A stretch of 64,000 nucleotides of DNA from NCBI GenBank assembly GCA_036172245.1, contig JAYWIR010000001.1:6882001-6946000 (forward strand), written 5' to 3'. The notes under the pieces were generated by a model. That model did not search any database and had not been told where the DNA came from. It saw nothing but the letters and a program-made list of their open reading frames with translations. Every line of letters starts with the position of its first letter. The first letter of the stretch is position 1. The translations under genes and the position numbers were made by a program. This document shows positions 5,101 through 43,477 of this stretch, piece after piece. Origin of the DNA: Raillietiella orientalis. Lineage: Eukaryota.

Positions 5101-7515
5101 CTCCGTCGGCCACCTCGCAGTAGAAGCGATCTCCTCCATTTCGCACTCGGACTCCACGTAGTTCAGCTTGGACTTTTGCTGAAATGAGTCTGCAGTTTGA
5201 GCCATTTACGTATCAGCAAATGCTTATTATGCATATCAGCGACTCCGAATTTAGCAAAATACGCGCGACAAACGTAGAAAGAGAAATGCATCCCGAAAAG
5301 AGAGATCCAGGCACAAGCATGGGCACGTGTTTGCCGCCTCTGGAACGACGCAGGCAAAGAAGTTTCGATAAAGAGCGAAGCACTGAGAACAAAACGTGGA
5401 TTCAGCATAAGAGACTCAAGAAAAGCACAGTCCATGAATTGGACACATCCTCGCACAGTGAATATTCGAAATCCAGTGCGACCAGATACGCAGTCACATT
5501 CCTTTATATGATTCCATCTATTCAGCCTCCAGAGATGAAAAGGTACTGGTGTATCCCGTAGACCCCCCCTTCGGAAGTGGGTGCAACAACCATTTGGTTG
5601 AGTAGAGAGTCTCAAACAAATGAGAAAATAGCAAGACAGAAGAATACCGGAACACGTTCATGATCAACAGACTCGCTAACGATTCCTATGGTGATCACGG
5701 AGGGTGCTCTAGAGATACGCACATTCGTCAGCTCAGCAAAAAGCTCTTCCTTTATTCGCACAATCCACTCAACCCAAAACCAGGGAATCAATTTCACGGC
5801 TACGTATCCCCTTCCTTGCAGCAACATGGGTCACTTTATCGTGGACCCTCTCGTGAAGCAACAAAGCTTAGCCCAGAGGGTCATTGAGCGAACTTCTGAA
5901 TCGCTTTCGCGTGAGGCATTCGCCTCATTTGGTGAGGAAACTGCAGCCAAAAGCACCGCCTGCCTGCATGAAAAGCAAACAGGTCGCTCTCCCTGCGATG
6001 TCGATGCCGCCCTACGTCGAAAGGGAAGAACCTGGATGCGCACTCACCGACGACCCTCGAGTCTGATTCCCCACACGCACAAAAGCAGCCTTCTTCCCTG
6101 CATCCGTTTCCCGGGGGTACGCTTCGACCGCGAGCACGACTTCGCCCATCTGCCTCCAGCGACGTGCGGCTGCCGCGCCTCACGGATCGCTACCCAACCT
6201 GCGAACGACTGCCCACCACCACAAGCAAACTCACCGCGACAAGTGGGCAAGTTGCCGGCATTCCACCCATCTCTTCCTTCTCCAGCGCTCGAAGATCCAC
6301 ACTCCAAACGCTCCATCGCCGTGCTCTTCTCCCTGGAAAATGGTTCGGGCCGACGCAACTCGGGAGCACCTCCTCGTGTCCTCCAATTACTCGCAATCCG
6401 CACGTCGAAGCGGGGGGAAACGGCCGGTGCTAGCGGACAGGAAGTTGATGAAACCGGCCGCGATGGAGCAAGGGCCCCTCCAAGACGTTTTGCAAGACCG
6501 CCTTTCTCCTTGCCGCGAATGAAGGAAACGCAACCACCAATCCCACCAGTCGAAACATCAGCTGCAAGGCAGCCCCATCGAGCGAAATCGTGGGGCTCTC
6601 CGCAGCCGAATGCACGCCACCGCGGTACCGCAAGAGCGGGCCGACCCACAATTCGGATCCCACAACACAGTTCCATTCCTCAGCGGCCACCTGCCACATC
6701 CACCCATTCGGCGAATCTCAAACGTGCAGCAGTCCGGCCAGTGACCCGCCAGCACGAACGCACCGCACGATCCACGGCGGCCTCTGCCGATCAGAAGGAA
6801 ACGGGAATTTTCGTCCACCTCTTGGCACGCACGAACCGACAACCCTCCGGTGGTCGTGCGCCGCCACGGTCCACTAGCAAAAACTCTGCCCGCCGACCGG
6901 AAGCAAACGTGCCGAGGGCCACGCTGACCCCCAGCACCGCGCTACACGATGCTCCACCTGAAAAGTGAGGAAGTGCACCAACTCGCGCTTCCCTTACCCA
7001 AGCCGTCACGACCTCGAAAGCCAGGGTACGCAAAAGCATCCACTTCGTAGCCCTGCTCTGGAGGTGTGCATGCCTGTCCGCAAGAGGAAAAAAAACACGA
7101 TTACCGGAAGCATTCCACGCGCGGGAACCACTTGCCGTAAAAACATCTTTTCCACTTTCCTTTCCCGGGAGGCAGGCGCCAGCCACGGAAGAAAATTCAT
7201 GCGGGAACAAAATTCTTTATTCGCCCCATTTTCCCCCCTTCTCCGTCGAGGGCCATTCTTTGGCATGAGGATTCCAACGTTGGAAAACCGAACAGCCAAC
7301 AAACCCCTTCGCATCATAACGTCGCTTCACAACACGGAAGCGAATTCACTGCGCACGAATGCATCCAAACAAACGGTGCAACACTTCAGCGAGACACTCT
7401 CAGCCACGCTTCGTGAATCGTTGCACAGGAAAACCATCCGCGAACATCCGGGGGGCAGGGAGGGGGGAAGGGGGGCAGGGCGAAAATGCCTTCCACACTT
7501 GCAAATTTCCCAGAT

Positions 7516-8992
7516 TCACAAACGATTCGTCACCGTGTCCGAAGAGCTCGTACGAGTGAGGGGATGCAAAAAGTCCCACGCATGATACTGCGGATCACCG
7601 TCCTCAGCTGGCTCCAAACTGCACTTCCGTTTGGCATACACGTGCACTTCCTCCATGCACATTCGCAGGTTCTCGATGGATTCACTTAGGTAACACAGCT
7701 GCTGCAGTAATGCCACGTCCATACGGCGCAGGCTTTCCTTAAAACAAAACACCACACGATCGATCGCCAACATGCCACCGGACACTTTCGAAACGCATCC
7801 ACGCTCCACCGACAACACCGAAGCCTCGAACCACCGCGGGCGAGCAGGTCGTCCCTGCGAACACGTTACGGTCGCACCTCGCACGCCCTGGCTGACGACC
7901 ACCACCATCATCGGCTGCCCCAATCTTCAGCGAACACGCGCAGCCGTCGACAGCACCTCGCCTCGCTCCTTCACCACGCGCCTCGACAAACCACTTCCAC
8001 GTCCACCTTCACTTTACGCAGCGGCCACCGATTGTCACCATCCTCTTCGTGACCCATCCACGCCCGCGCAACCGAAACCGTGCGCAAATCCCAAACAATC
8101 CAAATGCTTACAAACACACACCATCAAAAGGAACATCCGAAAGAACATCCGAACCGTGCCGGGATACAGGCCGTGCACAACCACCACCCCGCATCCAGGA
8201 CCAGTACAAACACCCCACCCTGTCACCGATTGCTTTCTTCGCCCGCGTGCACACATTGCGAGCAACGGCCAAACACCCACCCTCGTCCGACGACTTTACC
8301 AACGGCAAGCGGCATGCATGCGACACTCGCGGAGCAATCCCACCTTCTCCTCCCAGCAGCGCACTTCCCAACACTCCCCCAAAGGTGATGCGAACGCATC
8401 CGAAGCTTTCTTCCTTCGCTCCTCTCCTTCACGTCGCACGCAGCTCACACCTCCATTCCCAAACACCGTCGCCGGAGAACGACACCTTTCTCGGTTCGCT
8501 TATCCTGAAAACGGGATACGGGCGTGCATCCGAAAAGCGCCATGCAAACGTCCAATTCGATCTGACCTTCCATGCTCGGAAACCCGAGCGACAAACTGCA
8601 CCGACAACAACAACACGTGAACTGCAGAAGAAACGAAACACACAATACAGGCGAAGCACAACTGGCAACCAGGAACCAACGGCAACACAAGATGATCCCA
8701 TTCAACCTCCTGGCAAGCAATTCCCACTCGCCCATTTCCCATCACTCTTGTTGTTCTTGTGCGAATTGCGCCCAAGCACCCACACTGCAATCCCACGCCC
8801 ATGTATTGGGGGAAAGGACCTTACCATCTCTTTGCGAAGAACAGCAAGCTTTTCGTTTAAATCCAACGGAACGAAGGGGTTCGGAGCATCGGCAAAGTCC
8901 GTTTCCTCGCAGTCCTCATCAGCCAAATACAATGCGGAAGAAGCGAGAGCTCTCCTCAGACCATCGGGCACGCAAAGGTCGAAGACCGACAT
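7516..8992 (-). CDS. FAM89/LURAP-family leucine-rich adaptor-like protein, copy 1 (exons 8992-8825, 7737-7516; 129 aa)
   Basis: Spliced translation gives ...LNEKLAVLRKEM|ESLRRMDVALLQQLCYLSESIENLR..., resembling the FAM89 core [29 protein letters not shown]. Phase-0 GT-AG intron. Mirror of 38934..40410. Confidence 0.75.
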
Positions 8993-9052
8993 GCTCTGCA
9001 AAGCAGCATTTTTCCAAGCACCCTTCCAACGCACCGTATCCTACATCCTATC

Positions 9053-11726
9053 CTATTCTTTGAATTTCCACTCCTGGCGGCACATGGGGCACGGTTGCTG
9101 CACTTGCTGCGAATTTAACCATTTCATTATGCAGTGGATGTGAAAACAATGAGAGCACTGGCCCCACACTGAAAGCATACAACACTTACTTTCAAGCAAC
9201 CAGTCCCGCACTCCCAATTACGCTTCATCAACACTTTCTTACCATGCAGATTGAGCTCACCTAAACATGCAGGCATGCAACCAAACCACATCCTCCTGCT
9301 TTTCCATCCTTCCCAAGCACACTTCCAGCTTGCAAACAAAACTGCATCTTCAACATGCATTACAGCGCACCTCATCCACATTCACTCCCTTTCTGGGAAG
9401 GAACAGCACAACAACCAAGCCAATGCATTCCACATCCTCTTGGAAGCCACCGGTGCATACTTTTTCCGATCGACTTACAACTGCAAATCCAAAATAAGGC
9501 AAGCAGCAGCCATCCATCTTCCACAAAACTACAAAAACCACCCTCGACCCCACACCACTTGCAAGGGCACGATCCTTGCTGCATACTACTAGCATGAAAA
9601 ACACCTTGCTCCCTGACCACTTGCACCGCACTTGCCTTCCTAACTAGTCCAAATTGAATGCCAAGAACGAAAAAAAGAAAAAAAAGAAAAAAAAAAACCC
9701 TTATATTGTGGAGAAAATCAATCCGGGAACGAGCATCCAACCTGGAAAACAAATGTTCCTACACATTCCAAGTCTTTGTGGGTAGCCAATCCTCAACACC
9801 CTGGTGTCCTCCCTCCACCATCATCTCCACAAAAATCACAAACCTCAAACTGTCGCTTGCTCAAAACATTCTTGGATAAAAGCATTTGGCTGATCCACAG
9901 CAAACACACAGTTTCCAACATCAACCTGAAGCCACCACTGACCAAACGCATACTTTTTGCAGACAACAAACAAAATGCACCCACCTGAACAACTGTGGTG
10001 CAAAGTTGGCACATTCAACACAAACCCACCTCCACCCACATTCGAGTATCCAGGAACCATGCTCAAAAACACACCCTTCAAATCGTTTCTAACCAACCCA
10101 GGCACAGCCACAGCCACTTCACCACCTCCACATTTCAGAGAGCAGGCATCCAATGCTGCATTGCCACAACACAAATACAGCACTAGCTTTCCAATAACTG
10201 AAACTCCATTCACCAGGAGCTTCATTTACCAACAAATTCCACAGAACTACCAGCATGGGATGCTAACTCCCCTTGCAGCTGATGTGGAAACTCCAGTTGC
10301 TTCCAAGAGGCTGCTCCCATGCAGCCATTCAACGCACCTCAACACACTCCCCATGCACTTTACCTGCATTGGCACAATTCCCCTCCAAAGGTGATCGCAC
10401 CACCCACTCCCAAAACAACAAGTACACGTACCTAAAGGGCAGTCATCTCCAGGCATTTTGCAGTCGTTGCAGCAACCATCAAAAGGTGTACGGCATATAC
10501 CACAATTGTCATCGTTAGCAACCCATTTCCACACTGCTACACCAGCATAACCTGCATGCACAGAAATTACATACTTTCTGACGGCACGCCTTTGGGCAAA
10601 CTGACGAGCACACCCCCACTTTCTTTTCACGCAACAAACACACACTCTTTGAGAATGATGCACACAAAAACACACAATCCAAACGCTCTACCCCCCCCCC
10701 CCCCATGTCCCCATCTTGGCATACCATCCTACTTGCCCCGGATTTTCACGACAGGAAGACCGAACGTACAAACACAAACGTGAAACAACAAAGCAAAAAG
10801 AAAAATCAAAGAAAACCACCTGCTTCTTCCGGGGTCTTCAGCCCACAACCAAATGCAACGGACCGCCTCGAAATTCGATGCACGTCAGCAAGCAAGCAGG
10901 CACGAAACCACCACCAGGGATCACCCAGCCTCCTGACCGCTGCCGCAACCACGCACGACCAACTGCGGAATCCATCAAACGCCCAACCCGGCCATACACA
11001 AACACACTCCTCTGCAAAAATGACTTTCTGGCCACCCTAACAACACACTCCTTCTTCGCACGGAGAAAAATCGATCCCAAACCCGGACTCCGACTGTAAC
11101 CCTTCCATGCACACCCAAATTCCACTCGCCCCATCGGCGGGTACCCCCACAACCGACTTGCACCTACCTACCTGCGGGCTCTATCCCTGCCACACGCATC
11201 CCAACCCCTACGCACGTCGGCCACGCTGGACCCTGCATCCCATCCTCGCGTGTCCACGACCGAATCGCTTTCCTTTCCGTTCCCAACATTTCCCACTACC
11301 CCCAATGCATCCCCTCCACCGCAGAAGGAGCACCCCGAATCTGCAGTGCGGCAGCAGCCGTGCGCTTTGCCACCACATCGAGCCGCGAGCAGCATTCGTT
11401 CCGCCGGTGCCACGCCGAACGAATCCAACCGCCGGCCACATCTCGGAAAAACCACACGGGCAACATTAGCAAACTGACCACCCCAAGCTGCTTTCCTTCT
11501 GCTTGGATCCAGCACGCTTCACGACATCCCACCAACTGCCTGCTTGCCACACTGCCCGAAACGAGGGCAAAAACGAAAGAAGAAGGAAAAAAAAAAAAAA
11601 ACACCTTCCGTCGAATGCTGCGACGGACACACGAAAACACCACGCGGCAACACGACGGCCCAAGGTGCCCGCACCACCGATTTGTCCGCAGGAAAAAAAA
11701 GACTTACGTTTGATCTTCACTTTCAT
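9053..11726 (-). CDS. ANAPC11: Anaphase-promoting complex subunit 11 (RING-H2), copy 1 (exons 11726-11708, 10551-10432, 9168-9053; 84 aa)
   Basis: Spliced product [88 protein letters not shown] introns with consistent phase 1. Confidence 0.95.
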
Positions 11727-13940
11727 GCTCGAACCACGGAGCGCACGCAGCGCTCCCACACGTCGCTCGCCGAACAGCCTCGCGCGCGAACCCTTCTCGC
11801 CCAACTGCCGACTTCCTTCCCGCTGGACACGACGCGCCCCCTCCCTCCAGCTTGAAACGCATCGCCCTCTCGCGCCCGCTGCCGACGACACCCCCCGCCC
11901 TTCCTGCGTTTCCCAAACCTGCCGACCACCCTTTCCCCATCGTTCCGACAACTTCTTGCCTCTTGTTACGCACGTTTCCGGACGCGCCTTCTGCCCCACC
12001 TGACGACAGACGCCGACCTACGAGTCCAACAACTTGCATTGACCATTTGCGGTATTGCTGGAAGCGCTCTGCAGAATCTTTCACGAAACACTTTCTGTTT
12101 CCTCCGTGTTCTTCACGGTTCCTCGGTGCTTTCTTCCGCGGTTGCGCTGCATTTTCCCTTCTTACATGTGTTGTTGCATGGATGCCACTTGAGAAGCGGA
12201 TGCAGGGAGGTGGCCTACCATCCGCTGCCGTAGCCTGATCGGCTTCTTCTCCGGAATTCGTACGCATTGTACAACGTTGTCGTTTTCAGGATCCCACGCT
12301 CCCAGTGGGCCGCCGATGATCGCCTGCAATGCCGACTGCAATGCCGCTGCGATGAAAGTTTCGCCGACCCCACTCGGTGCGAGGCAACGCGCCCGGAGCT
12401 GCGGACAGCGACGGATGTCTCGGCGTGGCTCTCCTTTCACCGTACGCCCTAGCCTGCAGGCCGGAGCCGTGCTGACGTCTCCTCCGGAGGAGACGCAACA
12501 AGGGGGAGCGGTTCCGAAGCCCTCAACGGGCCGAAGACGCTCCTGCCTCGACTTTCGCCCGGGGCTGAGAAAGCAGGATCGTCTGGAACGGGTCGGAGGA
12601 GAAGGAAGTGTGCGAGAGCCCGAACTCTGCAGCTGGGAGGGCGCGCGGCTGTCGGTGCGAAGACCGCAGGCGGCGGCGGCGGCGGCCCTTGCGGCTCCTG
12701 CAAAGCGACCGCATCGGAAACGAGGGAAGGCAAAAGAGGTTGGGCGCCGCGCGTGCTGCCCGGGTGGCTGGAGGAGGACTGCTTGTGTGCTTGGAAGCGT
12801 TCTGGGATGTTTGCTGGTTCGGGTGGCGAGGCGACGGGAAGCCGTGGGGCCGATGTCTTGGGAACGGCCTTCTCGACCTGCGTGCATCGGCGGGTGGTTC
12901 TGAGGAAAGGAGGTTTTGGTCCGAGTGAAAAGCTGCAGCGTCTGGGTTTCGATTTCTCTCCGTGCTTCCTTTGATGGCTACATAGGGTTCTGTGTGTGTT
13001 TACGCGTCTTCTCCACGAATAGTTGTGACTTCGGTGATTGGTGTTGACTCTTTCTGAGCTTTCACTTGTGAGCGCGACTTTTGCTCTAATTCATACTCAC
13101 ATCATGCGTTCATGTGGCTCTTGCTGTTTTTTTTAATGGCAATTGACTGTGGAGACGGCAACGTGGTTTTTCTGATTTGTAGTATGGTACTGGTCTTTAT
13201 GTTCTTATTTGGCCGTCTTTGTGATCACAATTGAAGTTCTGTGCTATTCTGTTGTCTTTGGACTACTGTTGCGAACTATACGCTCCTATGCATCCATTTG
13301 GGTTCAGGTTACCATCTGATAATAGGGCAGATGGAGTTGGGCAATCATTATAGAGTGAGGTGAAATATTTTGCACAGCATCAGATGGTATGACACAATGC
13401 ACATTTACGTAAACATGTATATTGTTACACTCACATGTCTTAACACTGTAGTTAATCAAATGTGAATACTCCACAAGGTATACTGTAGAGACTTTCCTTT
13501 TGCAATGAGCAGCGCAGGGTACCGTATTATGTTCAACAAAATCAATAAAAATAAAAGTCACTGGGCACTTGTATTTCATTTTATAGACTACCTTTTTCAC
13601 ATTTTAGATTTTATTTTATCTTACTTTTTCCAATTTTTTCCTGCATTTTTTCAGTATTGGTAAGCACTTTATCATAGTGCGCACCACGCTAGACGGCAAC
13701 TTTTCCAAGTCAGTTGTAGCCCCCCCCCCCCCCCGTTGCTTAGCACTCTTTGTTGATTTCATGGGTGCAGCTTTTCATCGGTGGGACCCGGGCAAAATGA
13801 CCTACTGCATCCCAGGCGAGAGGTTCGAATTAGTGCGAACGTGAGATCTTTTCATAGACCTGCTGAGGAGGTCATTTCTGCAGAACCTCTAGCGTTCGGG
13901 TCGCACGTGGTGGTGGGCTCTAACCCCTGTTGTTTCCGCT

Positions 13941-14475
13941 TCAGAATGGGCGTCTCGCAGCTTCGTATCCGGTCCCCTTTCCACGTGGTGGATGGCGCGC
14001 GATGAAACTGTGAGAGATGTGGAAAGGCGGATGGATAATTCGGCGTGTCGCTGACCACGTCCTCAAACAGGGAGGTTGTTTCGTTCGATAGAGCTGGGTC
14101 ATCATCACTGAATATCGCTGATGGGCGCAGAAAGAGTCATCAAACCTAAGTTTTTTTTCCGTCTCGCTGGGGAGGGTGCCGAGTGAAGACGAGTGGTTCT
14201 TGGCAAGCGGAAAAAGTGACAATCTCTTTATCCTGCTGAGGTTTTCTTGACGCTGTAGATGCAGCCCTAGGTTCCTGGTGACTGCAAAGAATTCTACGCA
14301 AACTTGAGCTAAATCTGGAGCATGGTGAATCAACGGTGCACATAAAGGGCAAGAGTGCCGCGCTCAGGACATACACGAAAGGGAGAATTTTCGTTTCTCC
14401 AGCCTTGATGTCATAGACAGGAGAGAAAAAAGAGGAAGCAAGTGTGGCAGCCCTGTTTTCCAGCTTTAAAAGCAA
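13941..14475 (-). mobile_element. Possible degenerate LINE reverse-transcriptase fragment
   Basis: Overlapping frames give DIKAGETKILPFVYVLSAALL (weakly like the G-x-x-Q-G...SP-x-LF motif) and EFFAVTRNLGLHLQRQ (like F...GL-x-IN). Catalytic YADD not seen. Confidence 0.3.
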
Positions 14476-14859
14476 ACGCTACGATTTGGGCTTTGTCCCC
14501 ATTTCATTTTTTTTTGGGGGGGGAGCATCAAACTGCCAACGGAAAACAGCATTTTGTTCCAACATTCCCAAGACCGAGTCCAGCTCCGTGCAGGCCGGTC
14601 ACGCGTGCCTGACGCATCCCTGCACGCCCTTCTGTGAGGGAGGAGGAGGGAGAAAGAGAGAGAGCGGAAAAAACGCAGTACTCACCAGCAAGCCATCTCT
14701 CAATGAAAGGCAATGCTGCTATGTGGACTGACTCCTTTTCAAAGACACACGCGAAACATTCGAATCCATTCGCGACCGAATGTGCTTTCGAAATGTACGC
14801 ACCTTATCTGGGCTGTGAGCGTGAAAAAAGAAATGTCCTTGGTTGTTCTTCAGAAACGT

Positions 14860-15506
14860 TACCACGTAGGCATGACTTTGATTTCTCCCTGAAACGCATG
14901 GTGCCTGGATGCTTAGTCGCACGCAACTTTTTTGTGTGGATGTGTGAGATGTATGCCAAGGGTTCGTGTCGGGAGCTCGATCCCGACCACACGTCAGTGA
15001 TAACATGCGAGTGCTTCTCCGATAATCTGTTCGAATTGCCTGCTCGGCGCTATAAAAGAAAAAGAAACGACCCGTGGTGCGAACTTGGGGGACGAAGCGT
15101 TTTCGGAAGTATCTCCTCCACGAATGGCATATGTGGTGGTATGATTCCCGTGAAGCGCAACACCGGAGAATCTATCCCGTTTGCCGTTTTGCCGCGGAAT
15201 GACCCCCCCCCCCCTTTTTCTCCTGTTTTTTTTTTTTTGGCAGGAGATTCCTCTAGACTCCCGAAGCCATGTTCTAGTCTCAAATCGCCATGTGATTACA
15301 AGGTAATCGTCAGATTCGCAGCTCCCTTTTTTTGGCACTTTAACCTCGGTTATGGAAGTGCTGATTCCTCCCTGCAGCCCGTAAATCCTGACGATCTTAC
15401 ACTGTTCGATTCCAATCATTTCCAGCAGCTGTTTGCATACTTGCACGGCTTCGTACAGCAATTTTTCTGTAGGGGTCGCACCTTTCTGCCGTTGGCTGAT
15501 GGATGA
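14860..15506 (+). mobile_element. Possible internally deleted LINE ORF2 remnant
   Basis: Within ORF 14634..15506: DPDHTSV (like the APE-terminal SDH) and NPDDLTLFDSNHFQQLFAYLHGF (like RT YADDxxLF...LQ.L...L..F). Confidence 0.3.
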
Positions 15507-15638
15507 GGTACGTTGCGCTGCTAGGAGACTCGCGTCTCTGGGCAATTCCGAGCAGGCCGAGTGCTTCTCGTAAAATCCCGCGCCGTTTGACCCCTTTCGC
15601 TTTCTGGCCAACTCGCTGTCGCGAAATCGATACGTGGA

Positions 15639-15641
<3 letters not shown>

Positions 15642-15674
<33 letters not shown>
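15642..15674. repeat. (TGC)11 microsatellite
   Basis: Eleven perfect TGC units read directly. Confidence 0.95.
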
Positions 15675-15679
<5 letters not shown>

Positions 15680-17216: not shown

Positions 17217-17318
17217 AAGAGTCATCACGTGAGGAGCAATGATTAAGGATCATCACGCGAGGAGAAGTGGTCAAGTGTCATCACGTGAGAAGCGTTGGAT
17301 AAGGGTCGTCACATGCTC
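17217..17318 (+). repeat. 28-bp period minisatellite, ~3.6 diverged units, each with a TCACGTGA-like core
   Basis: Units start at 17217, 17245, 17273 and 17301: aagagtcatcacgtgaggag / aaggatcatcacgcgaggag / aagtgtcatcacgtgagaag / aagggtcgtcacatgc. Confidence 0.8.
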
Positions 17319-33976: not shown

Positions 33977-36200
33977 TGTGAATTCACATCACACTTAATT
34001 AAATGCAAATTTAATAACTACATTCTAGACGATCACACTGAATATGAACAATTCAATAGTCAACAAACTCTCCACAGTACACACTCGACAACCACATACG
34101 TATTCACACGAAAATTATCGCACGTGATAAATGCATCCGTATTCAGTCAGCAATTCGACTTACAGGAGTTCAATATTAAGTAGCAAATAGGTAAAGATGA
34201 ATATGCTTAGAAAATTCTAAATACCAGAACAAAAAGATATACCTTACATCTTTTATCCTTCAATAAAATCCATTCACCCAATCTTTAAAAATACATATTA
34301 TAATTAGCAAATGCTTTAGGAATATGGAAACAACCCTCGGATAATACAAACAAACTGTCCCCCCCCCCCAAAAAAAAAACATAACTAAAAATACACTTCC
34401 TCAAAACATGTTATCATAGTTTAAAGAAAAAGATTTCCATAACTCACCAAAAAAAAAAACAGAAACTGCAAAAGAAACTTTAGCAATAAACACAAATTCT
34501 CTAATAATCCAAAATAAGCCATGTCTTCTGATTTTCAAGGTCTTTATTAACGACCACGCAAACATAACAAACATTTTGCATACCGAAACCTACATTTTAA
34601 AAACACATCTAATCAATCTGATATATATAAATGATCTCCGCATCAGTAAACCTATAGCACAATCAGGTTAGCCAGCAAATTCTTTTTTAAACTTCCTCTA
34701 TACACTGTCTATATCTAGGTCTACACTGCAGAAAAAATGTTAACCATGATGTTTTCCTAATTAAGACAAGATTCATTATCTTGACAATTCCTACATTACA
34801 CTTCTGCTTTTCGCACGGAACTAAATCACGTCTCCCAAGAACCACCCGCCGATGCACGCAGGTCGAGAAGGCCGTTCCCAAGACATCGGCCCCACGGCTT
34901 CCCGTCGCCTCGCCACCCGAACCAGCAAACATCCCAGAACGCTTCCAAGCACACAAGCAGTCCTCGTCCAGCCACCCGGGCAGCACGCGCGGCGCCCAAC
35001 CTCTTTTGCCTTCCCTCGTTTCCGATGCGGTCGCTTTGCAGGAGCCGCAAGGGCCGCCGCCGCCGCCGCCTGCGGTCTTCGCACCGACAGCCGCGCGCCC
35101 TCCCAGCTGCAGAGTTCGGGCTCTCGCACACTTCCTTCTCCTCCGACCCGTTCCAGACGATCCTGCTTTCTCAGCCCCGGGCGAAAGTCGAGGCAGGAGC
35201 GTCTTCGGCCCGTTGAGGGCTTCGGAACCGCTCCCCCTTGTTGCGTCTCCTCCGGAGGAGACGTCAGCACGGCTCCGGCCTGCAGGCTAGGGCGTACGGT
35301 GAAAGGAGAGCCACGCCGAGACATCCGTCGCTGTCCGCCAAGCATCGGTCAGCAACAGCCCGGGAACGTCCGTCTTCAGCATGACCGGTCGGCCGGCTTG
35401 GGACGCCGCGTCTCCTGCTCGCACGCTGACGCGTCTTTCACGCCGCAGGAAGGCAACTTGGCACTGTGGACCGTTCGCACGTGGCTGAGCGGACGGCAAC
35501 CGTGCGGCAGGCAGCGAACCACCCGCAGCTCCGGGCGCGTTGCCTCGCACCGAGTGGGGTCGGCGAAACTTTCATCGCAGCGGCATTGCAGTCGGCATTG
35601 CAGGCGATCATCGGCGGCCCACTGGGAGCGTGGGATCCTGAAAACGACAACGTTGTACAATGCGTACGAATTCCGGAGAAGAAGCCGATCAGGCTACGGC
35701 AGCGGATGGTAGGCCACCTCCCTGCATCCGCTTCTCAAGTGGCATCCATGCAACAACACATGTAAGAAGGGAAAATGCAGCGCAACCGCGGAAGAAAGCA
35801 CCGAGGAACCGTGAAGAACACGGAGGAAACAGAAAGTGTTTCGTGAAAGATTCTGCAGAGCGCTTCCAGCAATACCGCAAATGGTCAATGCAAGTTGTTG
35901 GACTCGTAGGTCGGCGTCTGTCGTCAGGTGGGGCAGAAGGCGCGTCCGGAAACGTGCGTAACAAGAGGCAAGAAGTTGTCGGAACGATGGGGAAAGGGTG
36001 GTCGGCAGGTTTGGGAAACGCAGGAAGGGCGGGGGGTGTCGTCGGCAGCGGGCGCGAGAGGGCGATGCGTTTCAAGCTGGAGGGAGGGCGCGCGTCGTGT
36101 CCAGCGGGAAGGAAGTCGGCAGTTGGGCGAGAAGGGTTCGCGCGCGAGGCTGTTCGGCGAGCGACGTGTGGGAGCGCTGCGTGCGCTCCGTGGTTCGAGC

Positions 36201-38873
36201 ATGAAAGTGAAGATCAAACGTAAGTCTTTTTTTTCCTGCGGACAAATCGGTGGTGCGGGCACCTTGGGCCGTCGTGTTGCCGCGTGGTGTTTTCGTGTGT
36301 CCGTCGCAGCATTCGACGGAAGGTGTTTTTTTTTTTTTTCCTTCTTCTTTCGTTTTTGCCCTCGTTTCGGGCAGTGTGGCAAGCAGGCAGTTGGTGGGAT
36401 GTCGTGAAGCGTGCTGGATCCAAGCAGAAGGAAAGCAGCTTGGGGTGGTCAGTTTGCTAATGTTGCCCGTGTGGTTTTTCCGAGATGTGGCCGGCGGTTG
36501 GATTCGTTCGGCGTGGCACCGGCGGAACGAATGCTGCTCGCGGCTCGATGTGGTGGCAAAGCGCACGGCTGCTGCCGCACTGCAGATTCGGGGTGCTCCT
36601 TCTGCGGTGGAGGGGATGCATTGGGGGTAGTGGGAAATGTTGGGAACGGAAAGGAAAGCGATTCGGTCGTGGACACGCGAGGATGGGATGCAGGGTCCAG
36701 CGTGGCCGACGTGCGTAGGGGTTGGGATGCGTGTGGCAGGGATAGAGCCCGCAGGTAGGTAGGTGCAAGTCGGTTGTGGGGGTACCCGCCGATGGGGCGA
36801 GTGGAATTTGGGTGTGCATGGAAGGGTTACAGTCGGAGTCCGGGTTTGGGATCGATTTTTCTCCGTGCGAAGAAGGAGTGTGTTGTTAGGGTGGCCAGAA
36901 AGTCATTTTTGCAGAGGAGTGTGTTTGTGTATGGCCGGGTTGGGCGTTTGATGGATTCCGCAGTTGGTCGTGCGTGGTTGCGGCAGCGGTCAGGAGGCTG
37001 GGTGATCCCTGGTGGTGGTTTCGTGCCTGCTTGCTTGCTGACGTGCATCGAATTTCGAGGCGGTCCGTTGCATTTGGTTGTGGGCTGAAGACCCCGGAAG
37101 AAGCAGGTGGTTTTCTTTGATTTTTCTTTTTGCTTTGTTGTTTCACGTTTGTGTTTGTACGTTCGGTCTTCCTGTCGTGAAAATCCGGGGCAAGTAGGAT
37201 GGTATGCCAAGATGGGGACATGGGGGGGGGGGGGGTAGAGCGTTTGGATTGTGTGTTTTTGTGTGCATCATTCTCAAAGAGTGTGTGTTTGTTGCGTGAA
37301 AAGAAAGTGGGGGTGTGCTCGTCAGTTTGCCCAAAGGCGTGCCGTCAGAAAGTATGTAATTTCTGTGCATGCAGGTTATGCTGGTGTAGCAGTGTGGAAA
37401 TGGGTTGCTAACGATGACAATTGTGGTATATGCCGTACACCTTTTGATGGTTGCTGCAACGACTGCAAAATGCCTGGAGATGACTGCCCTTTAGGTACGT
37501 GTACTTGTTGTTTTGGGAGTGGGTGGTGCGATCACCTTTGGAGGGGAATTGTGCCAATGCAGGTAAAGTGCATGGGGAGTGTGTTGAGGTGCGTTGAATG
37601 GCTGCATGGGAGCAGCCTCTTGGAAGCAACTGGAGTTTCCACATCAGCTGCAAGGGGTGCTTGCATCCCATGCTGGTGGTTCTGTGGAATTTGTTGGTAA
37701 ATGAAGCTCCTGGTGAATGGAGTTTCAGTTATTGGAAAGCTAGTGCTGTATTTGTGTTGTGGCAATGCAGCATTGGCATGCTGCTCTCTGAAATGTGGAG
37801 GTGGTGAAGTGGCTGTGGCTGTGCCTGGGTTGAGCGTTGAAACGATTTGAAGGTGTGTTTTTGAGCATGGTTCCTGAATGCTCGAATGTGGGTGGAGGAG
37901 TGGGTTTGTGTTGAATGTGCCAACTTTGCACCAGTTGTTCAGGTGGGTGCATTTTGTTTGTTGTCTGCAAAAAGTATGCGTTTGGTCAGTGGTGGCTTCA
38001 GGTTGATGTTGGAAACTGTGTGTTTGCTGTGGATCAGCCAAATGCTTTTATCCAAGAATGTTTTGAGCAAGCGACAGTTTGAGGTTTGTGATTTTTGTGG
38101 AGATGATGGTGGAGGGAGGACACCAGGGTGTTGAGGATTGGCTACCCACAAAGACTTGGAATGTGTAGGAACATTTGTTTTCCAGGTTGGATGCTCGTTC
38201 CCGGATTGATTTTCTCCACAATATAAGGGTTTTTTTTTTCTTTTTTTTCTTTTTTTCGTTCTTGGCATTCAATTTGGACTAGTTAGGAAGGCAAGTGCGG
38301 TGCAAGTGGTCAGGGAGCAAGGTGTTTTTCATGCTAGTAGTATGCAGCAAGGATCGTGCCCTTGCAAGTGGTGTGGGGTCGAGGGTGGTTTTTGTAGTTT
38401 TGTGGAAGATGGATGGCTGCTGCTTGCCTTATTTTGGATTTGCAGTTGTAAGTCGATCGGAAAAAGTATGCACCGGTGGCTTCCAAGAGGATGTGGAATG
38501 CATTGGCTTGGTTGTTGTGCTGTTCCTTCCCAGAAAGGGAGTGAATGTGGATGAGGTGCGCTGTAATGCATGTTGAAGATGCGGTTTTGTTTGCAAGCTG
38601 GAAGTGTGCTTGGGAAGGATGGAAAAGCAGGAGGATGTGGTTTGGTTGCATGCCTGCATGTTTAGGTGAGCTCAATCTGCATGGTAAGAAAGTGTTGATG
38701 AAGCGTAATTGGGAGTGCGGGACTGGTTGCTTGAAAGTAAGTGTTGTATGCTTTCAGTGTGGGGCCAGTGCTCTCATTGTTTTCACATCCACTGCATAAT
38801 GAAATGGTTAAATTCGCAGCAAGTGCAGCAACCGTGCCCCATGTGCCGCCAGGAGTGGAAATTCAAAGAATAG
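36201..38873 (+). CDS. ANAPC11: Anaphase-promoting complex subunit 11, copy 2 (exons 36201-36219, 37375-37494, 38758-38873; 84 aa)
   Basis: Exons of 19+120+116 = 255 nt encode a complete RING-H2 APC11 with GT-AG introns. No coding difference from copy 1 was seen. Confidence 0.95.
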
Positions 38874-38933
38874 GATAGGATGTAGGATACGGTGCGTTGG
38901 AAGGGTGCTTGGAAAAATGCTGCTTTGCAGAGC

Positions 38934-40410
38934 ATGTCGGTCTTCGACCTTTGCGTGCCCGATGGTCTGAGGAGAGCTCTCGCTTCTTCCGCATTGTATT
39001 TGGCTGATGAGGACTGCGAGGAAACGGACTTTGCCGATGCTCCGAACCCCTTCGTTCCGTTGGATTTAAACGAAAAGCTTGCTGTTCTTCGCAAAGAGAT
39101 GGTAAGGTCCTTTCCCCCAATACATGGGCGTGGGATTGCAGTGTGGGTGCTTGGGCGCAATTCGCACAAGAACAACAAGAGTGATGGGAAATGGGCGAGT
39201 GGGAATTGCTTGCCAGGAGGTTGAATGGGATCATCTTGTGTTGCCGTTGGTTCCTGGTTGCCAGTTGTGCTTCGCCTGTATTGTGTGTTTCGTTTCTTCT
39301 GCAGTTCACGTGTTGTTGTTGTCGGTGCAGTTTGTCGCTCGGGTTTCCGAGCATGGAAGGTCAGATCGAATTGGACGTTTGCATGGCGCTTTTCGGATGC
39401 ACGCCCGTATCCCGTTTTCAGGATAAGCGAACCGAGAAAGGTGTCGTTCTCCGGCGACGGTGTTTGGGAATGGAGGTGTGAGCTGCGTGCGACGTGAAGG
39501 AGAGGAGCGAAGGAAGAAAGCTTCGGATGCGTTCGCATCACCTTTGGGGGAGTGTTGGGAAGTGCGCTGCTGGGAGGAGAAGGTGGGATTGCTCCGCGAG
39601 TGTCGCATGCATGCCGCTTGCCGTTGGTAAAGTCGTCGGACGAGGGTGGGTGTTTGGCCGTTGCTCGCAATGTGTGCACGCGGGCGAAGAAAGCAATCGG
39701 TGACAGGGTGGGGTGTTTGTACTGGTCCTGGATGCGGGGTGGTGGTTGTGCACGGCCTGTATCCCGGCACGGTTCGGATGTTCTTTCGGATGTTCCTTTT
39801 GATGGTGTGTGTTTGTAAGCATTTGGATTGTTTGGGATTTGCGCACGGTTTCGGTTGCGCGGGCGTGGATGGGTCACGAAGAGGATGGTGACAATCGGTG
39901 GCCGCTGCGTAAAGTGAAGGTGGACGTGGAAGTGGTTTGTCGAGGCGCGTGGTGAAGGAGCGAGGCGAGGTGCTGTCGACGGCTGCGCGTGTTCGCTGAA
40001 GATTGGGGCAGCCGATGATGGTGGTGGTCGTCAGCCAGGGCGTGCGAGGTGCGACCGTAACGTGTTCGCAGGGACGACCTGCTCGCCCGCGGTGGTTCGA
40101 GGCTTCGGTGTTGTCGGTGGAGCGTGGATGCGTTTCGAAAGTGTCCGGTGGCATGTTGGCGATCGATCGTGTGGTGTTTTGTTTTAAGGAAAGCCTGCGC
40201 CGTATGGACGTGGCATTACTGCAGCAGCTGTGTTACCTAAGTGAATCCATCGAGAACCTGCGAATGTGCATGGAGGAAGTGCACGTGTATGCCAAACGGA
40301 AGTGCAGTTTGGAGCCAGCTGAGGACGGTGATCCGCAGTATCATGCGTGGGACTTTTTGCATCCCCTCACTCGTACGAGCTCTTCGGACACGGTGACGAA
40401 TCGTTTGTGA
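38934..40410 (+). CDS. FAM89/LURAP-family protein, copy 2 (exons 38934-39101, 40189-40410; 129 aa)
   Basis: ATG 38934 lies 3 nt after a ttgcag acceptor. Donor gtaagg at 39102, acceptor ttttaag at 40188. Core LRKEM|ESLRRMDVALLQQL. AATAAA at 40705. Confidence 0.75.
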
Positions 40411-43400
40411 ATCTGGGAAATTTGCAAGTGTGGAAGGCATTTTCGCCCTGCCCCCCTTCCCCCCTCCCTGCCCCCCGGATGTTCGCGGATGGTTTTCCTG
40501 TGCAACGATTCACGAAGCGTGGCTGAGAGTGTCTCGCTGAAGTGTTGCACCGTTTGTTTGGATGCATTCGTGCGCAGTGAATTCGCTTCCGTGTTGTGAA
40601 GCGACGTTATGATGCGAAGGGGTTTGTTGGCTGTTCGGTTTTCCAACGTTGGAATCCTCATGCCAAAGAATGGCCCTCGACGGAGAAGGGGGGAAAATGG
40701 GGCGAATAAAGAATTTTGTTCCCGCATGAATTTTCTTCCGTGGCTGGCGCCTGCCTCCCGGGAAAGGAAAGTGGAAAAGATGTTTTTACGGCAAGTGGTT
40801 CCCGCGCGTGGAATGCTTCCGGTAATCGTGTTTTTTTTCCTCTTGCGGACAGGCATGCACACCTCCAGAGCAGGGCTACGAAGTGGATGCTTTTGCGTAC
40901 CCTGGCTTTCGAGGTCGTGACGGCTTGGGTAAGGGAAGCGCGAGTTGGTGCACTTCCTCACTTTTCAGGTGGAGCATCGTGTAGCGCGGTGCTGGGGGTC
41001 AGCGTGGCCCTCGGCACGTTTGCTTCCGGTCGGCGGGCAGAGTTTTTGCTAGTGGACCGTGGCGGCGCACGACCACCGGAGGGTTGTCGGTTCGTGCGTG
41101 CCAAGAGGTGGACGAAAATTCCCGTTTCCTTCTGATCGGCAGAGGCCGCCGTGGATCGTGCGGTGCGTTCGTGCTGGCGGGTCACTGGCCGGACTGCTGC
41201 ACGTTTGAGATTCGCCGAATGGGTGGATGTGGCAGGTGGCCGCTGAGGAATGGAACTGTGTTGTGGGATCCGAATTGTGGGTCGGCCCGCTCTTGCGGTA
41301 CCGCGGTGGCGTGCATTCGGCTGCGGAGAGCCCCACGATTTCGCTCGATGGGGCTGCCTTGCAGCTGATGTTTCGACTGGTGGGATTGGTGGTTGCGTTT
41401 CCTTCATTCGCGGCAAGGAGAAAGGCGGTCTTGCAAAACGTCTTGGAGGGGCCCTTGCTCCATCGCGGCCGGTTTCATCAACTTCCTGTCCGCTAGCACC
41501 GGCCGTTTCCCCCCGCTTCGACGTGCGGATTGCGAGTAATTGGAGGACACGAGGAGGTGCTCCCGAGTTGCGTCGGCCCGAACCATTTTCCAGGGAGAAG
41601 AGCACGGCGATGGAGCGTTTGGAGTGTGGATCTTCGAGCGCTGGAGAAGGAAGAGATGGGTGGAATGCCGGCAACTTGCCCACTTGTCGCGGTGAGTTTG
41701 CTTGTGGTGGTGGGCAGTCGTTCGCAGGTTGGGTAGCGATCCGTGAGGCGCGGCAGCCGCACGTCGCTGGAGGCAGATGGGCGAAGTCGTGCTCGCGGTC
41801 GAAGCGTACCCCCGGGAAACGGATGCAGGGAAGAAGGCTGCTTTTGTGCGTGTGGGGAATCAGACTCGAGGGTCGTCGGTGAGTGCGCATCCAGGTTCTT
41901 CCCTTTCGACGTAGGGCGGCATCGACATCGCAGGGAGAGCGACCTGTTTGCTTTTCATGCAGGCAGGCGGTGCTTTTGGCTGCAGTTTCCTCACCAAATG
42001 AGGCGAATGCCTCACGCGAAAGCGATTCACTCAACCATTCTCGGAGCTAATCTGTTTCGCCCTCTCCTATCAATCACTTTTCTTACATCATACTCTTTTT
42101 AATCACTTTACACTGAAGCTGTGGAGTTTCTCTGAATACCTACTTCCTCCAACGAAGCTGCTTTTATGCGGTTCCATTCGAAAAGAAGCAACAGAGTTTA
42201 TACTAGAAACCAATAATAAACAACTTGTAATACCATCCTTTTTCTAATTCAAATGTGTGATGCACCAGTTGATAGAACCTGATCCAATGTCGTTTTTTTT
42301 CTAGCATTCAGTGTGCATTTTGTGTTGACAATCTCACAAGCATATAGTAGTTTCAAGTTTTTGCATTGAGAACATAGCTATATGGGGCTTCATATATATC
42401 TATGGAAAAAGCAATTAATTCTACAAGTTTTCTGAGCTGGTTAGAAAAGGAGAAACTAAAGTTCTGAGAATCATAGTTCTTTAGCAGGGCATCATGCAGT
42501 GGACCTGCATCAAAAAGATTCCACAGAAATTCTAGTTGCACTGCTTAAATTAGATTTATTATAAAATAAAGGTAAAATCCTGTTGGATGTTCTGAAAAGA
42601 ACTTGTACATGGCAAACTTGCATAACAATTTACAACTCAGTGTGGAACTTGTAACTCCAGGCAATATTTTTGAGCAGTGAGATAATGCACAACTATTGCT
42701 TAAGTTATGGAATGTCATAAGTTTCAATGAAAAAATCACTTATGTGGTTACTAAATATTTCTTATAGTATAGTTCCAAAATAGTTCTTTTTTTTTTTTAT
42801 ATATACAGCATTCATGAAAATTCCAATTATATAAATGCCTAATGCTGATAAATGTTGGCAAGAAGCATAGTAGATCCATGTAACCTCAACTTGAATATTT
42901 TTCCCGAAAATAATAATTGCTTTATAGTTTATTTACATTATGGACTGATGCATTATAGGACACATTCCCAAATACTCAAAGAATTGCAACTTTTAACATA
43001 AACTTGGTTGGAAACAAAAAACAGGTTTACATGAAAAAATGAGTTGGTAAGAAAGTAGTGGAAAATCTATGAGAATTACTTTGTGCCCCAATAATGTTTT
43101 GTAAATCACATTTAAAAATTAAGATAACAGAAACACCTGTGTTTCTATTCTAATGTGTTTGTGACCTTAAATTGCATTTTTCTATGTAGAAAATAGCTAG
43201 TTTTCAAAATAATTATTAGCTAGGAACTTTAGTTTCTTTATTTACTTACTACTTTCTCCTCCAATGAAAATAATTAAGCCTTATATTTTGATAAAAATAT
43301 GAAACAAACTATTAGTACAACAAAAGTTTTAATAATAAATCTAAAATCTCTGAATTCTCTCTGAATGCATACAAAATGCATCATAACAGTGCATCTGCAA

Positions 43401-43477
43401 GAACTCCAACACAACTCACAATGAACATTCTTAAATGTGTGTGCTAATGGAAAAGTCGCACATATCTAGTTGGCTAG

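What the first reader, a model, noticed from the sequence alone, without database searches (positions are those of the whole stretch)
5897..42029. Gene-bearing 36-kb palindrome: two near-identical 7-kb arms, each with intact ANAPC11 and a FAM89-like gene
Seen: the arms are reverse complements with only scattered differences, flank a 21.9-kb unique spacer, and duplicate a core cell-cycle E3 subunit that is normally single-copy. No transposase, TIR or TSD was found. Established: large gene-bearing palindromes maintained by arm-to-arm conversion are known from sex-chromosome amplicons, and inverted repeats can flip the spacer. Inference: this is a conversion-maintained palindrome, and the PDHA/TBC1D23 spacer may be an orientation polymorphism.
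Basis: partly seen in the sequence, partly recalled or inferred. Interest (0 to 1): 0.8.

Follow-up and report, generated by a model that had tools for sequence, protein, structure and literature searches.

The report
Inverted duplication of ANAPC11–FAM89 locus
Two nearly identical 7-kb copies of a two-gene unit (cell-cycle gene ANAPC11 plus a FAM89-like gene) face each other across 22 kb of unique DNA in an unidentified animal genome; this is a fairly ordinary young-looking inverted duplication whose reality in the living genome could not be checked with reads.

Summary
Arms 5897-12901 (7005 bp) and 34838-42029 (7192 bp) are reverse complements, 99.7% identical, around a 21,936-bp unique spacer. 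Each arm carries a complete three-exon ANAPC11 gene, followed 60 nt later on the same strand by a two-exon FAM89/LURAP-like gene. The coding sequences are identical in both arms.

The differences are clustered, not scattered. Of 17 events, 11 lie in one 275-bp intron patch. One event is a 188-bp deletion in the left arm, flanked by the microhomology GCGG. A 40-bp stretch of 68% identity extends past the inner arm ends.

I found no transposase, TIR or TSD, and the introns are retained. My best reading is a young inverted segmental duplication of a whole locus, probably touched by arm-to-arm conversion. Long-term conversion maintenance, spacer flipping and sex linkage remain untested. Only one low-coverage public run held this DNA, and no listed contig bridged a junction, so an assembly artefact is not excluded.

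In passing: the ANAPC11→FAM89 pairing is conserved in 13 of 80 metagenome loci and resembles the dicistronic Drosophila lemming locus. The spacer holds two old PDHA paralogues of opposite base composition.

The parts
5897..12901 (.). Left arm (7005 bp)
   Evidence: GC 0.50-0.63. The + strand is C+A-rich (GC skew -0.18 to -0.37) from 5897 to about 11726.
34838..42029 (.). Right arm (7192 bp), reverse complement of the left arm
   Evidence: GC 0.56, set in flanks of GC 0.33 on both sides.
12902..34837 (.). Unique spacer, 21,936 bp: a GC-rich half (to about 21.4 kb) and an AT-rich half
   Evidence: No internal repeat. Composition.
9053..11726 (-). ANAPC11, left copy: exons 11708-11726, 10432-10551 and 9053-9168 (stop included)
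   Evidence: Pfam zf-ANAPC11. Splice sites GTAAGT/ATGCAG and GTACGT/TTTCAG, and a 255-nt open reading frame.
7516..8992 (-). FAM89/LURAP-like gene, left copy: exons 8825-8992 and 7516-7737. Its ATG lies 60 nt after the ANAPC11 stop.
   Evidence: Pfam LURAP E 7.5e-5, below cut-off. hhalign to the FAM89 profile: exon-1 ORF matches columns 78-100, exon-2 ORF matches columns 99-148. 390-nt open reading frame.
36201..38873 (+). ANAPC11, right copy: exons 36201-36219, 37375-37494 and 38758-38873
   Evidence: Coding sequence identical to the left copy.
38934..40410 (+). FAM89/LURAP-like gene, right copy: exons 38934-39101 and 40189-40410
   Evidence: Coding sequence identical to the left copy.
35339..35526 (.). 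188-bp segment present only in the right arm, read as a deletion in the left arm at 12400/12401
   Evidence: Unique sequence, bounded by GCGG on both sides in the right arm.
9994..10268 (.). Divergent patch in ANAPC11 intron 2 (partner 37658-37934): 11 of the 17 arm differences
12902..12941 (.). Inner-edge zone of decayed homology (partner 34798-34837): 27 of 40 bases identical without gaps, then no similarity
   Evidence: 0 of 200,000 random flank pairs reach 25/37. (the motif occurs only at these two places).
19729..21266 (+). GC-rich PDHA paralogue in the spacer
   Evidence: Pfam E1_dh. Six exon blocks collinear with the AT-rich copy.
26490..27843 (+). AT-rich, CpG-poor PDHA paralogue in the spacer
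   Evidence: CpG o/e 0.21.
28214..33793 (-). TBC1D23 in the spacer. Its 5' coding exons end about 1 kb from the right arm's inner end, and it is transcribed divergently from the right ANAPC11 copy.
   Evidence: Pfam TBC1D23_C, Rhodanese and RabGAP-TBC. N-terminal ORF 33545-33793 (its assignment as the N-terminus rests on recall).
4747..5205 (-). Fragment of a non-LTR retrotransposon endonuclease, 0.7 kb outside the left arm
   Evidence: Pfam Exo_endo_phos E 2.3e-5, profile positions 1-40 only.

Best explanation
This is a real, evolutionarily young inverted segmental duplication. One complete locus was copied once by a DNA-level repair or replication process. The locus comprises a promoter region, a three-exon ANAPC11 gene, a FAM89-like gene 60 nt downstream on the same strand, and about 1.6 kb of downstream sequence. 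The copy was not made by transposition or retroposition. It sits in inverted orientation 21.9 kb away.

The left copy is most likely the source, and the right copy is an insertion into AT-rich intergenic DNA about 1 kb upstream of TBC1D23 (inferred from base composition). Since then the arms have acquired 17 small differences. These include a 188-bp microhomology-flanked deletion in the left arm, and none touches coding sequence. Occasional arm-to-arm conversion has probably erased differences over most of the length (inferred).

Shown effect: two identical copies of both genes. Inferred potential: recombination between the arms could invert the spacer. Because the arms are symmetrical, inversion would leave every gene next to the same arm sequence.
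For: Structure.

Introns are retained and the splice sites are canonical, so this is not a retrocopy.

I found no transposase in the arm ORFs. In one search, 145 ORFs from the left flank and left arm were scanned; the arm ORFs matched only ANAPC11 RING families and LURAP/DUF4530. The junctions are sharp, with no TSD and no terminal inverted repeat.

The arms are independent sequences rather than one sequence written twice. They differ by the 188-bp GCGG-bounded indel, 9 simple substitutions and 7 other small indel or complex events.

Low divergence: 9 substitutions in 7005 bp.

Composition: the right arm has GC 0.56 and CpG o/e 1.0, between flanks of GC 0.33. The left arm lies in a 22-kb GC-rich block (GC 0.52-0.58). 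The present spacer orientation keeps the GC-rich half next to the GC-rich flank and the AT-rich half next to the AT-rich flank.

Clustering of differences is what conversion of most of the arm would leave.

Short contigs of run X1 match both the arm and its AT-rich flanks with no differences: 7 of the 8 listed pieces have 0 other letters. This shows both compositional classes are present in the one run that holds this DNA.
Against: No read or contig shown bridges any of the four junctions, so the assembly itself is unverified.

A young, unconverted duplication does not explain the 40-bp zone of 68% identity directly beyond the inner ends, nor why 11 of 17 differences sit in 275 bp.

The direction of copying rests on composition alone. 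One metagenome contig (L048) has PDHA upstream of ANAPC11 on the same strand, which matches the right copy and not the left. That is 1 of 80 loci, so it is weak.

The organism is unknown. The best PDHA hit is 76% identical, and the top hits span several phyla. No mutation rate or age can therefore be given.
Confidence: 0.55

Rival explanations
1. This is an old palindrome kept nearly identical by frequent arm-to-arm gene conversion. The duplication is far older than 0.3% divergence suggests. The 40-bp inner edge and the 275-bp intron patch are stretches that conversion has not reached, or not reached recently.
For: An abrupt step from identity to 27/40 identity and then to no homology at the inner edge, far above chance.

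Strong clustering of differences, plus a 3446-bp run with no difference.

The right arm keeps a GC-rich, CpG-rich composition inside AT-rich DNA.

Conversion-maintained palindromes with >99% arm identity and GC-biased conversion are documented on primate sex chromosomes (PMC8327919, passages read; PMC8981503 and PMC3723533, listing and start of abstract only).
Against: No comparable eroded zone at the outer edge.

No gradient of divergence toward the inner edge: only 1 difference in the last 500 bp.

The 188-bp indel has not been homogenised, although its flanks are identical.

GC-richness is not specific to the arms, because the left flanks are GC-rich too.

The right-hand 40-bp zone is still about 48% GC in a 33% GC context (counted by eye).

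No remnant of a TBC1D23 paralogue lies in the left inner flank (best E-values no better than in three control regions).

No orthologous locus could be examined.
Confidence: 0.2
2. This is an assembly artefact. Only one copy exists per haplotype. Either the second arm is a misplaced haplotype copy, or the two positions are alternative alleles (a heterozygous inverted transposition) that the assembler merged into one sequence.
For: Arm differences of about 0.3% plus an indel are also what two haplotypes would show.

No independent read evidence for any junction could be obtained.

The right arm is compositionally foreign to its surroundings.
Against: The window has no N or gap.

Both arms are embedded in unique sequence on both sides within one contiguous sequence, which would need two false joins per arm.

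The 40-bp decayed homology at the inner junction and the GCGG-bounded deletion look like biological junction features, not assembler products.
Confidence: 0.15
3. The right copy was made by repair synthesis primed at a pre-existing short diverged inverted repeat. A broken end at about 34838 paired with the 40-bp look-alike at 12902-12941, copied about 7 kb of the left locus, and was then rejoined at 42030. This is a variant of the best explanation that accounts for the inner edge.
For: The step from 68% to 100% identity falls exactly at the junction.

Template switching between highly diverged repeats during break-induced replication, and microhomology-mediated break-induced replication, are described (PMC4215184 and PMC2621351, listing and start of abstract only).

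The arm start and the right inner flank start share 'TG'.
Against: The two bases next to the junction do not match between the two 40-bp stretches.

The longest exact run in the zone is 7 bases.

The origin of the look-alike itself is unexplained: it occurs nowhere else in the window.
Confidence: 0.1

Closest known systems
Large conversion-maintained palindromes of primate X and Y chromosomes (P1-P8; the 26 human X palindromes)
   Same: Inverted arms with >99% identity around a unique spacer. The genes are duplicated intact, and there is potential for spacer inversion by recombination between arms (PMC8327919, passages; PMC3723533 and PMC8600007, listing and abstract start).
   Different: The arms are 7.0-7.2 kb, below the >8 kb used there. 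The cargo is a housekeeping E3 subunit, not a testis gene family. Sex linkage, conversion and conservation across species are all untested here.
Ordinary intrachromosomal inverted segmental duplications formed by replication- or repair-based mechanisms (MMBIR, template switching, fold-back)
   Same: Sharp breakpoints without TSD or TIR, introns retained, a short microhomology-flanked deletion, and an inverted copy a few tens of kb from the source (PMC2621351, PMC4215184 and PMC3907307: listing and abstract start).
   Different: The 40-bp zone of 68% identity at one junction is longer and more diverged than typical microhomology. Fold-back duplications usually have short spacers and arise at chromosome ends (recalled).
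Drosophila lemming locus (dicistronic lmgA = Apc11 plus lmgB)
   Same: An Apc11 ORF is followed on the same strand by a second ORF after a short intercistronic sequence: 92-165 bp in Drosophila species (PMC3372440, passages), 60 nt here.
   Different: That paper reports no domains in LmgB and no homologues outside Drosophilidae. Here the second gene is FAM89/LURAP-like. That LmgB belongs to FAM89 is my recollection and was not tested. A single transcript was not shown here (no RNA run was listed).

Membership tests
Inverted segmental duplication | Two copies of 1 kb or more, at 90% identity or more, in opposite orientation on one sequence | tested here: met
   7005 and 7192 bp, 99.7% identical, reverse-complementary.
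Conversion-maintained ampliconic palindrome (sex-chromosome type) | Arms >8 kb with >99% identity (criterion in PMC8327919) | tested here: not met
   The identity criterion is met (99.7%). The arm length (7.0-7.2 kb) falls short of 8 kb.
Conversion-maintained ampliconic palindrome (sex-chromosome type) | Concerted evolution: arms more alike within a species than orthologous arms between species | not testable with these tools
   No genome is held for the window. No same-species or sister-species locus was found among the 80 metagenome loci; the best ANAPC11 exon identity was 92%.
Conversion-maintained ampliconic palindrome (sex-chromosome type) | Non-uniform arm divergence left by conversion tracts | tested here: inconclusive
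   11 of 17 differences fall in 275 bp, and one run of 3446 bp has none. This is compatible with conversion, but also with one mutation cluster or ancestral polymorphism.
Conversion-maintained ampliconic palindrome (sex-chromosome type) | Sex-linked location and testis-biased multi-copy cargo | not testable with these tools
   There is no chromosome context and no RNA holder was listed. The cargo is ANAPC11 plus a FAM89-like gene.
Transposon-borne duplication (DNA transposon, Helitron, LINE transduction) | Transposase or other element genes, terminal repeats, target-site duplication or a poly-A tail at the copy ends | tested here: not met
   The arm ORFs have no such Pfam hits. The ends TGAATCGC... 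and ...GGTGGTTCT have no TIR. The flanks of the right copy show no direct repeat and no poly-A. The only element fragment lies 0.7 kb outside the left arm.
Retrocopy | Loss of introns | tested here: not met
   Both copies keep introns of 1156, 1263 and 1087 bp.
Assembly false duplication | Copy adjoins a gap or contig end, is identical to the source, and has halved read depth | tested here: inconclusive
   There are no N characters and the copies differ by 17 events. Depth and junction-spanning reads could not be obtained.
ANAPC11 (APC/C RING-H2 subunit) | zf-ANAPC11 domain over the whole small protein | tested here: met
   The exon ORFs cover profile positions 1-38 (E 3.5e-9) and 26-65 (E 3.6e-17), both above the 25-bit cut-off. 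The reading frame is 84 codons.
FAM89 / LURAP family (PF14854) | Match to the family profile above Pfam's cut-off | tested here: inconclusive
   23.1 bits against a cut-off of 25 for the exon-2 ORF alone. The spliced protein could not be submitted. phmmer against 1.84 billion representatives gave only 2 hits, both to the intron-derived N-terminal part.
FAM89 / LURAP family (PF14854) | Conserved core motifs of the family (LRKEM, then LR..D..LL.QLW.LNE.I) and the N-terminal LPPLPKSLSG motif | tested here: inconclusive
   The core matches a 24-sequence arthropod FAM89 profile across the exon junction (E 2.8e-5 and 3.6e-5). The invariant W and N of the core are C and S here, and no LPPLP motif is seen in exon 1.
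lemming-type dicistronic Apc11 locus | Second ORF on the same strand within about 100-170 nt or less of the Apc11 stop | tested here: met
   60 nt, with no AATAAA in between.
lemming-type dicistronic Apc11 locus | One mRNA carrying both ORFs | not testable with these tools
   No RNA run was listed for this DNA.

The most novel reading that the evidence does not exclude
This is an old autosomal palindrome in an invertebrate-type genome, and it has kept two identical copies of an essential, conserved dicistronic APC11-FAM89 locus through arm-to-arm conversion. The 40-bp decayed inner edge and the 275-bp intron patch are the only remnants of its true age. Conversion holds the right arm at GC 0.56 inside DNA of GC 0.33.
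Probability: 0.2. Interest if true: 0.55.

Novelty: new member of a known kind. Interest (0 to 1): 0.3.

Why it matters
If real, the organism carries two identical, independently promoted copies of the catalytic RING subunit of the anaphase-promoting complex, which is a simple dosage change. It also carries a 7-kb inverted repeat that can invert or destabilise a 22-kb segment holding PDHA and TBC1D23. That is a useful marker locus for structural polymorphism, but not a new kind of system.

The side observation may be of wider use. ANAPC11 and a FAM89-family gene sit as a tightly packed same-strand pair in many organisms. This gives the unexplained second cistron of the Drosophila lemming locus a candidate family and a testable conservation.

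Tried and rejected
- Whole genome: none is held for this window.
- Earlier scan notes on this genome and on look-alike stretches: none.
- Public runs: 1 run listed (X1), a small share of 0.07, and no RNA holder listed.
- Laying X1 on 30001-50000: 56 short contigs, of which 8 pieces were listed. None of the listed pieces bridges 34837/34838 or 42029/42030. No joint 34837>42030 was listed. 78 pieces and 58 loose ends were not shown. This gives no verdict on the junctions, copy number or empty sites.
- Rfam (0 matches) and tRNA scan (0 genes) over the window.
- Search for extended old homology beyond the arms: nothing beyond 40 bp at the inner edge and nothing at the outer edge.
- tblastn of 77 TBC1D23-side ORFs against the left inner flank: no better than three control regions.
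- Relaxed Pfam scan of 65 minus-strand ORFs in the left flank: only a 40-residue endonuclease fragment and a weak zf-RVT hit, so there is no intact LINE abutting the arm.
- The search for homologous proteins with the FAM89-like ORF: no hit.
- phmmer against representatives: 2 spurious hits.
- PDHA exon search: best identity 76%, hits from mixed phyla, organism not identified.
- Helitron, LINE-transduction and retrocopy origins were considered and rejected on end sequences and retained introns.
- GC-biased conversion as the cause of the arms' GC-richness (idea from earlier finding e1-618328): rejected as sufficient, because the left flanks are equally GC-rich.
Full report
**Observation**

The window contains exactly one long repeat, and it is inverted. 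In the blastn self-comparison, 5897-12404 matches 42029-35523 at 99.68% over 6514 columns (8 mismatches, 9 gap openings). Segment 12401-12933 matches 35338-34806 at 97.9%.

A MAFFT alignment of the two arms with their flanks places near-identity from 5897/42029 (outer ends) to 12901/34838 (inner ends). This gives arms of 7005 and 7192 bp and a spacer of 21,936 bp. The window has no N and no soft-masking.

**Gene content of the arms**

Each arm carries a complete ANAPC11 gene. On the left arm it lies on the minus strand, with exons 11708-11726, 10432-10551 and 9053-9168. Its introns of 1156 and 1263 bp have canonical GT-AG ends, and the reading frame is 84 codons. Pfam zf-ANAPC11 matches the exon-2 ORF (E 3.5e-9) and the exon-3 ORF (E 3.6e-17).

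A second gene starts on the same strand 60 nt after the ANAPC11 stop. There is no AATAAA in between, and the sequence TTTGCAG lies just before its ATG. It has exons 8825-8992 and 7516-7737, a 1087-bp intron and 129 codons.

Evidence that this second gene belongs to the FAM89/LURAP family:
- Its exon-2 ORF hits Pfam LURAP at E 7.5e-5. At 23.1 bits it is just under the 25-bit cut-off.
- Against a profile of 24 arthropod FAM89/LRAP25 proteins, the exon-1 ORF aligns to columns 78-100 (E 2.8e-5). The exon-2 ORF aligns to columns 99-148 (E 3.6e-5).
- The two ORFs therefore meet where the window has its intron.

It is a divergent member. Two residues invariant in the profile's core are replaced, and the N-terminal LPPLP motif is not seen. 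The spliced coding sequences of both genes are identical in the two arms. "Intact ANAPC11 and a FAM89-like gene in each arm" is confirmed.

**How the arms differ**

There are 17 events: 9 simple substitutions, 5 small indels (1-2 bp), 2 complex changes and one 188-bp indel. They are not scattered.
- Eleven events lie between 9994 and 10268 in ANAPC11 intron 2. No 275-bp window reached that count in 100,000 permutations.
- The stretch 5897-9342 has no difference at all. A run that long arose in 19 of 100,000 permutations.

The 188-bp segment (35339-35526) is unique sequence present only in the right arm. It is bounded by GCGG on both sides, so it is best read as a microhomology-mediated deletion in the left arm. 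None of the events touches coding sequence.

**The junctions**

The outer junction is sharp. Nothing beyond 5896 and 42030 is similar.

The inner junction is unusual. Directly beyond the identical sequence, 12902-12941 and 34837-34798 still agree at 27 of 40 positions without gaps. After that, similarity drops to background, at 4-7 matches per 20. None of 200,000 random pairs of 37-mers from the same flanks reached the observed 25 of 37. The motif occurs nowhere else in the window.

I saw no target-site duplication, terminal inverted repeat or poly-A at the right copy. No arm ORF matches a transposase, integrase or reverse transcriptase. A 40-residue fragment of a non-LTR endonuclease lies 0.7 kb outside the left arm. 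No intact element abuts it.

**Context**

The window is a compositional mosaic.
- Positions 1-22 kb are GC-rich (0.49-0.67) with CpG o/e near 1.
- Positions 22-34.8 kb and 42-58 kb are AT-rich (0.30-0.44).
- Gene bodies in the AT-rich parts are strongly CpG-depleted, with o/e 0.13-0.40.

The left arm lies inside the GC-rich block. The right arm is a GC 0.56 island between flanks of GC 0.33.

The spacer contains:
- a GC-rich PDHA paralogue (19.7-21.3 kb, + strand);
- an AT-rich PDHA paralogue (26.5-27.8 kb, + strand), with six collinear exon blocks at 37-74% amino-acid identity;
- TBC1D23 on the minus strand (28.2-33.8 kb).

The 5' coding exons of TBC1D23 end about 1 kb from the right arm, so it is transcribed divergently from the right ANAPC11 copy. 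The right flank holds an RCC1-repeat gene and a mitochondrial pyruvate carrier gene.

In the assembled orientation the GC-rich half of the spacer adjoins the GC-rich outer flank, and the AT-rich half adjoins the AT-rich flank. I read this as the ancestral order, with the right arm as the inserted copy. This is an inference from composition only.

**Independent evidence for the assembly**

No genome is held for the window. One public run was listed, with 7% of the sampled words and kept as short contigs. No RNA holder was listed. Laid on 30001-50000, its contigs of 150-230 bases match the arm, the TBC1D23 side and the outer flank without differences (7 of the 8 listed pieces). No listed piece bridges a junction, and most pieces and loose ends were not shown.

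Internal features argue for a real structure:
- there are no gaps;
- each arm has unique sequence on both sides;
- the arms are independently mutated;
- the junction features look biological.

A merged heterozygous rearrangement or a misplaced haplotype copy is not excluded.

**Mechanism**

Retained introns exclude retroposition. The ends and the cargo exclude the transposon classes I considered. What remains is a DNA-level inverted segmental duplication of a whole locus.

Two readings of its age compete.
- Young duplication. It has 9 substitutions in 7 kb, with conversion or a single mutation cluster shaping the pattern of differences. This is the commoner kind of event, so I give it 0.55.
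- Old palindrome homogenised by conversion. It explains the 40-bp eroded edge and the patch well. Against it: there is no eroded outer edge and no gradient of divergence, the 188-bp indel is not homogenised, and no further relic homology exists in the inner flanks. I give it 0.2.

A variant of the young model would also give the abrupt step from 68% to 100% identity. In it, repair synthesis was primed from a pre-existing diverged 40-bp inverted look-alike. Template switching between diverged repeats is described (PMC4215184, listing and abstract start only).

Spacer inversion by recombination between the arms is mechanistically expected. In primate X palindromes about half of the comparable spacers differ in orientation between species (PMC8327919, passages). 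It was not observable here.

**Comparison with what is known**

The structure works like the conversion-prone palindromes of primate sex chromosomes. Membership is unproven:
- arm length is below the 8-kb criterion of PMC8327919;
- concerted evolution, sex linkage and testis expression could not be tested.

It is a member of the broad class of inverted segmental duplications. I rate it a new member of a known kind, with interest 0.3.

**Side finding**

The ANAPC11→FAM89 arrangement is not peculiar to this window. I fetched 80 metagenome loci with the ANAPC11 exon-3 peptide. Thirteen have a FAM89-profile ORF downstream on the same strand. All 13 are in that orientation, and 57 of the 80 loci have at least 1 kb downstream.
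- Six FAM89-profile ORFs came from the seven loci where the second ORF is unsplit; one locus, L054, was not sent. Five of the six sent pass Pfam's LURAP cut-off, out of 12 such ORFs submitted.
- In ten loci where a start codon could be placed, the second start lies from 70 nt inside the ANAPC11 ORF to 89 nt after its stop.
- One intronless contig (L045) carries ANAPC11, FAM89 and a PI4-kinase ORF on one strand. Its FAM89 ORF is 92% identical to a protein named FAM89A-like of a leafhopper.
- Two NCBI gene models combine zf-ANAPC11 and LURAP domains in one protein.

The Drosophila lemming locus is a proven dicistronic Apc11 gene. Its second cistron, lmgB, was reported to have no domains and no homologues outside Drosophilidae (PMC3372440, passages). 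I recall, but did not test, that lmgB is a FAM89 relative.

On whether this is in print: a full-text search for FAM89 together with ANAPC11 found one unrelated expression-data paper. The word FAM89 does not occur in the lemming paper. A broader search listed only 12 of 1,541 papers, so it does not show absence from print.

Noticed in passing
window 7516-11726 (and 36201-40410); loci L005, L010, L034, L045, L046, L049, L050, L054, L055, L068, L069, L072, L073: ANAPC11 is followed on the same strand by a FAM89/LURAP-family gene, 60 nt later in the window. The same pairing occurs in 13 of 80 metagenome loci. In ten of them a start codon could be placed, with gaps from -70 to +89 nt. This looks like a widely conserved dicistronic locus of the Drosophila lemming (lmgA/lmgB) type. 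It suggests the unexplained lmgB cistron is a FAM89 relative; that last step is recalled, not tested.
   Followed up: partly
window 19729-21266 and 26490-27843: Two tandem, same-strand PDHA paralogues have six collinear exon blocks (37-74% amino-acid identity) but opposite composition. One has GC 0.58 and CpG o/e 0.86, with substitutions in otherwise conserved motifs. The other has GC 0.36 and CpG o/e 0.21. Both are about equally similar to human PDHA1.
   Followed up: partly
window, whole: There is a sharp compositional mosaic. GC-rich blocks (1-22 kb, the right arm, 58-62.3 kb) have CpG o/e near 1. AT-rich DNA has gene bodies with CpG o/e 0.13-0.40, the pattern expected of germline gene-body methylation. 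Introns in the AT-rich genes appear very short: adjacent exon ORFs overlap or nearly abut.
   Followed up: partly
window 7738-11707 (introns of the arm genes): The three roughly 1.1-1.3-kb introns of ANAPC11 and the FAM89-like gene are 66-67% G+T on the sense strand (C only 13-18%). This gives the arms a GC skew up to 0.39 that stops near the ANAPC11 start. The cause is unknown.
   Followed up: no
window 12890-12900, 34839-34849, 35516-35526: The 11-mer GCGGGTGGTTC ends both arms at the inner junction. It also starts the 188-bp segment that the left arm has lost. Allowing one mismatch there are 5 matches, against 0.81 expected by chance. This may point to a recurrent breakpoint motif, or it may be coincidence.
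   Followed up: no
L048 6349-13013: A 38.7-kb metagenome contig carries PDHA (+), a KRR1-like ORF (-), an intronless ANAPC11 RING region (+) and MBTPS1 (+) within 7 kb. PDHA lies upstream of ANAPC11 on the same strand, as for the right arm and the AT-rich PDHA in the window. This may be old microsynteny or chance (1 of 80 loci).
   Followed up: partly
window 4747-5205 and 563-934, minus strand: Remnants of a non-LTR retrotransposon: the first 40 profile positions of an endonuclease domain (E 2.3e-5) and a weak zf-RVT match (E 0.0018). No reverse-transcriptase domain was detected between them.
   Followed up: partly
window 58812-58970 and 61253-61411: A diverged direct repeat (about 51-55% identity at the translated level) lies 2.4 kb apart inside the right-hand GC-rich island, which has no Pfam match. 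It may be the ends of a decayed element.
   Followed up: no
window 14613-15503, + strand: A 297-codon stop-free frame in the GC-rich half of the spacer has no Pfam match. I did not determine whether it is a gene.
   Followed up: no
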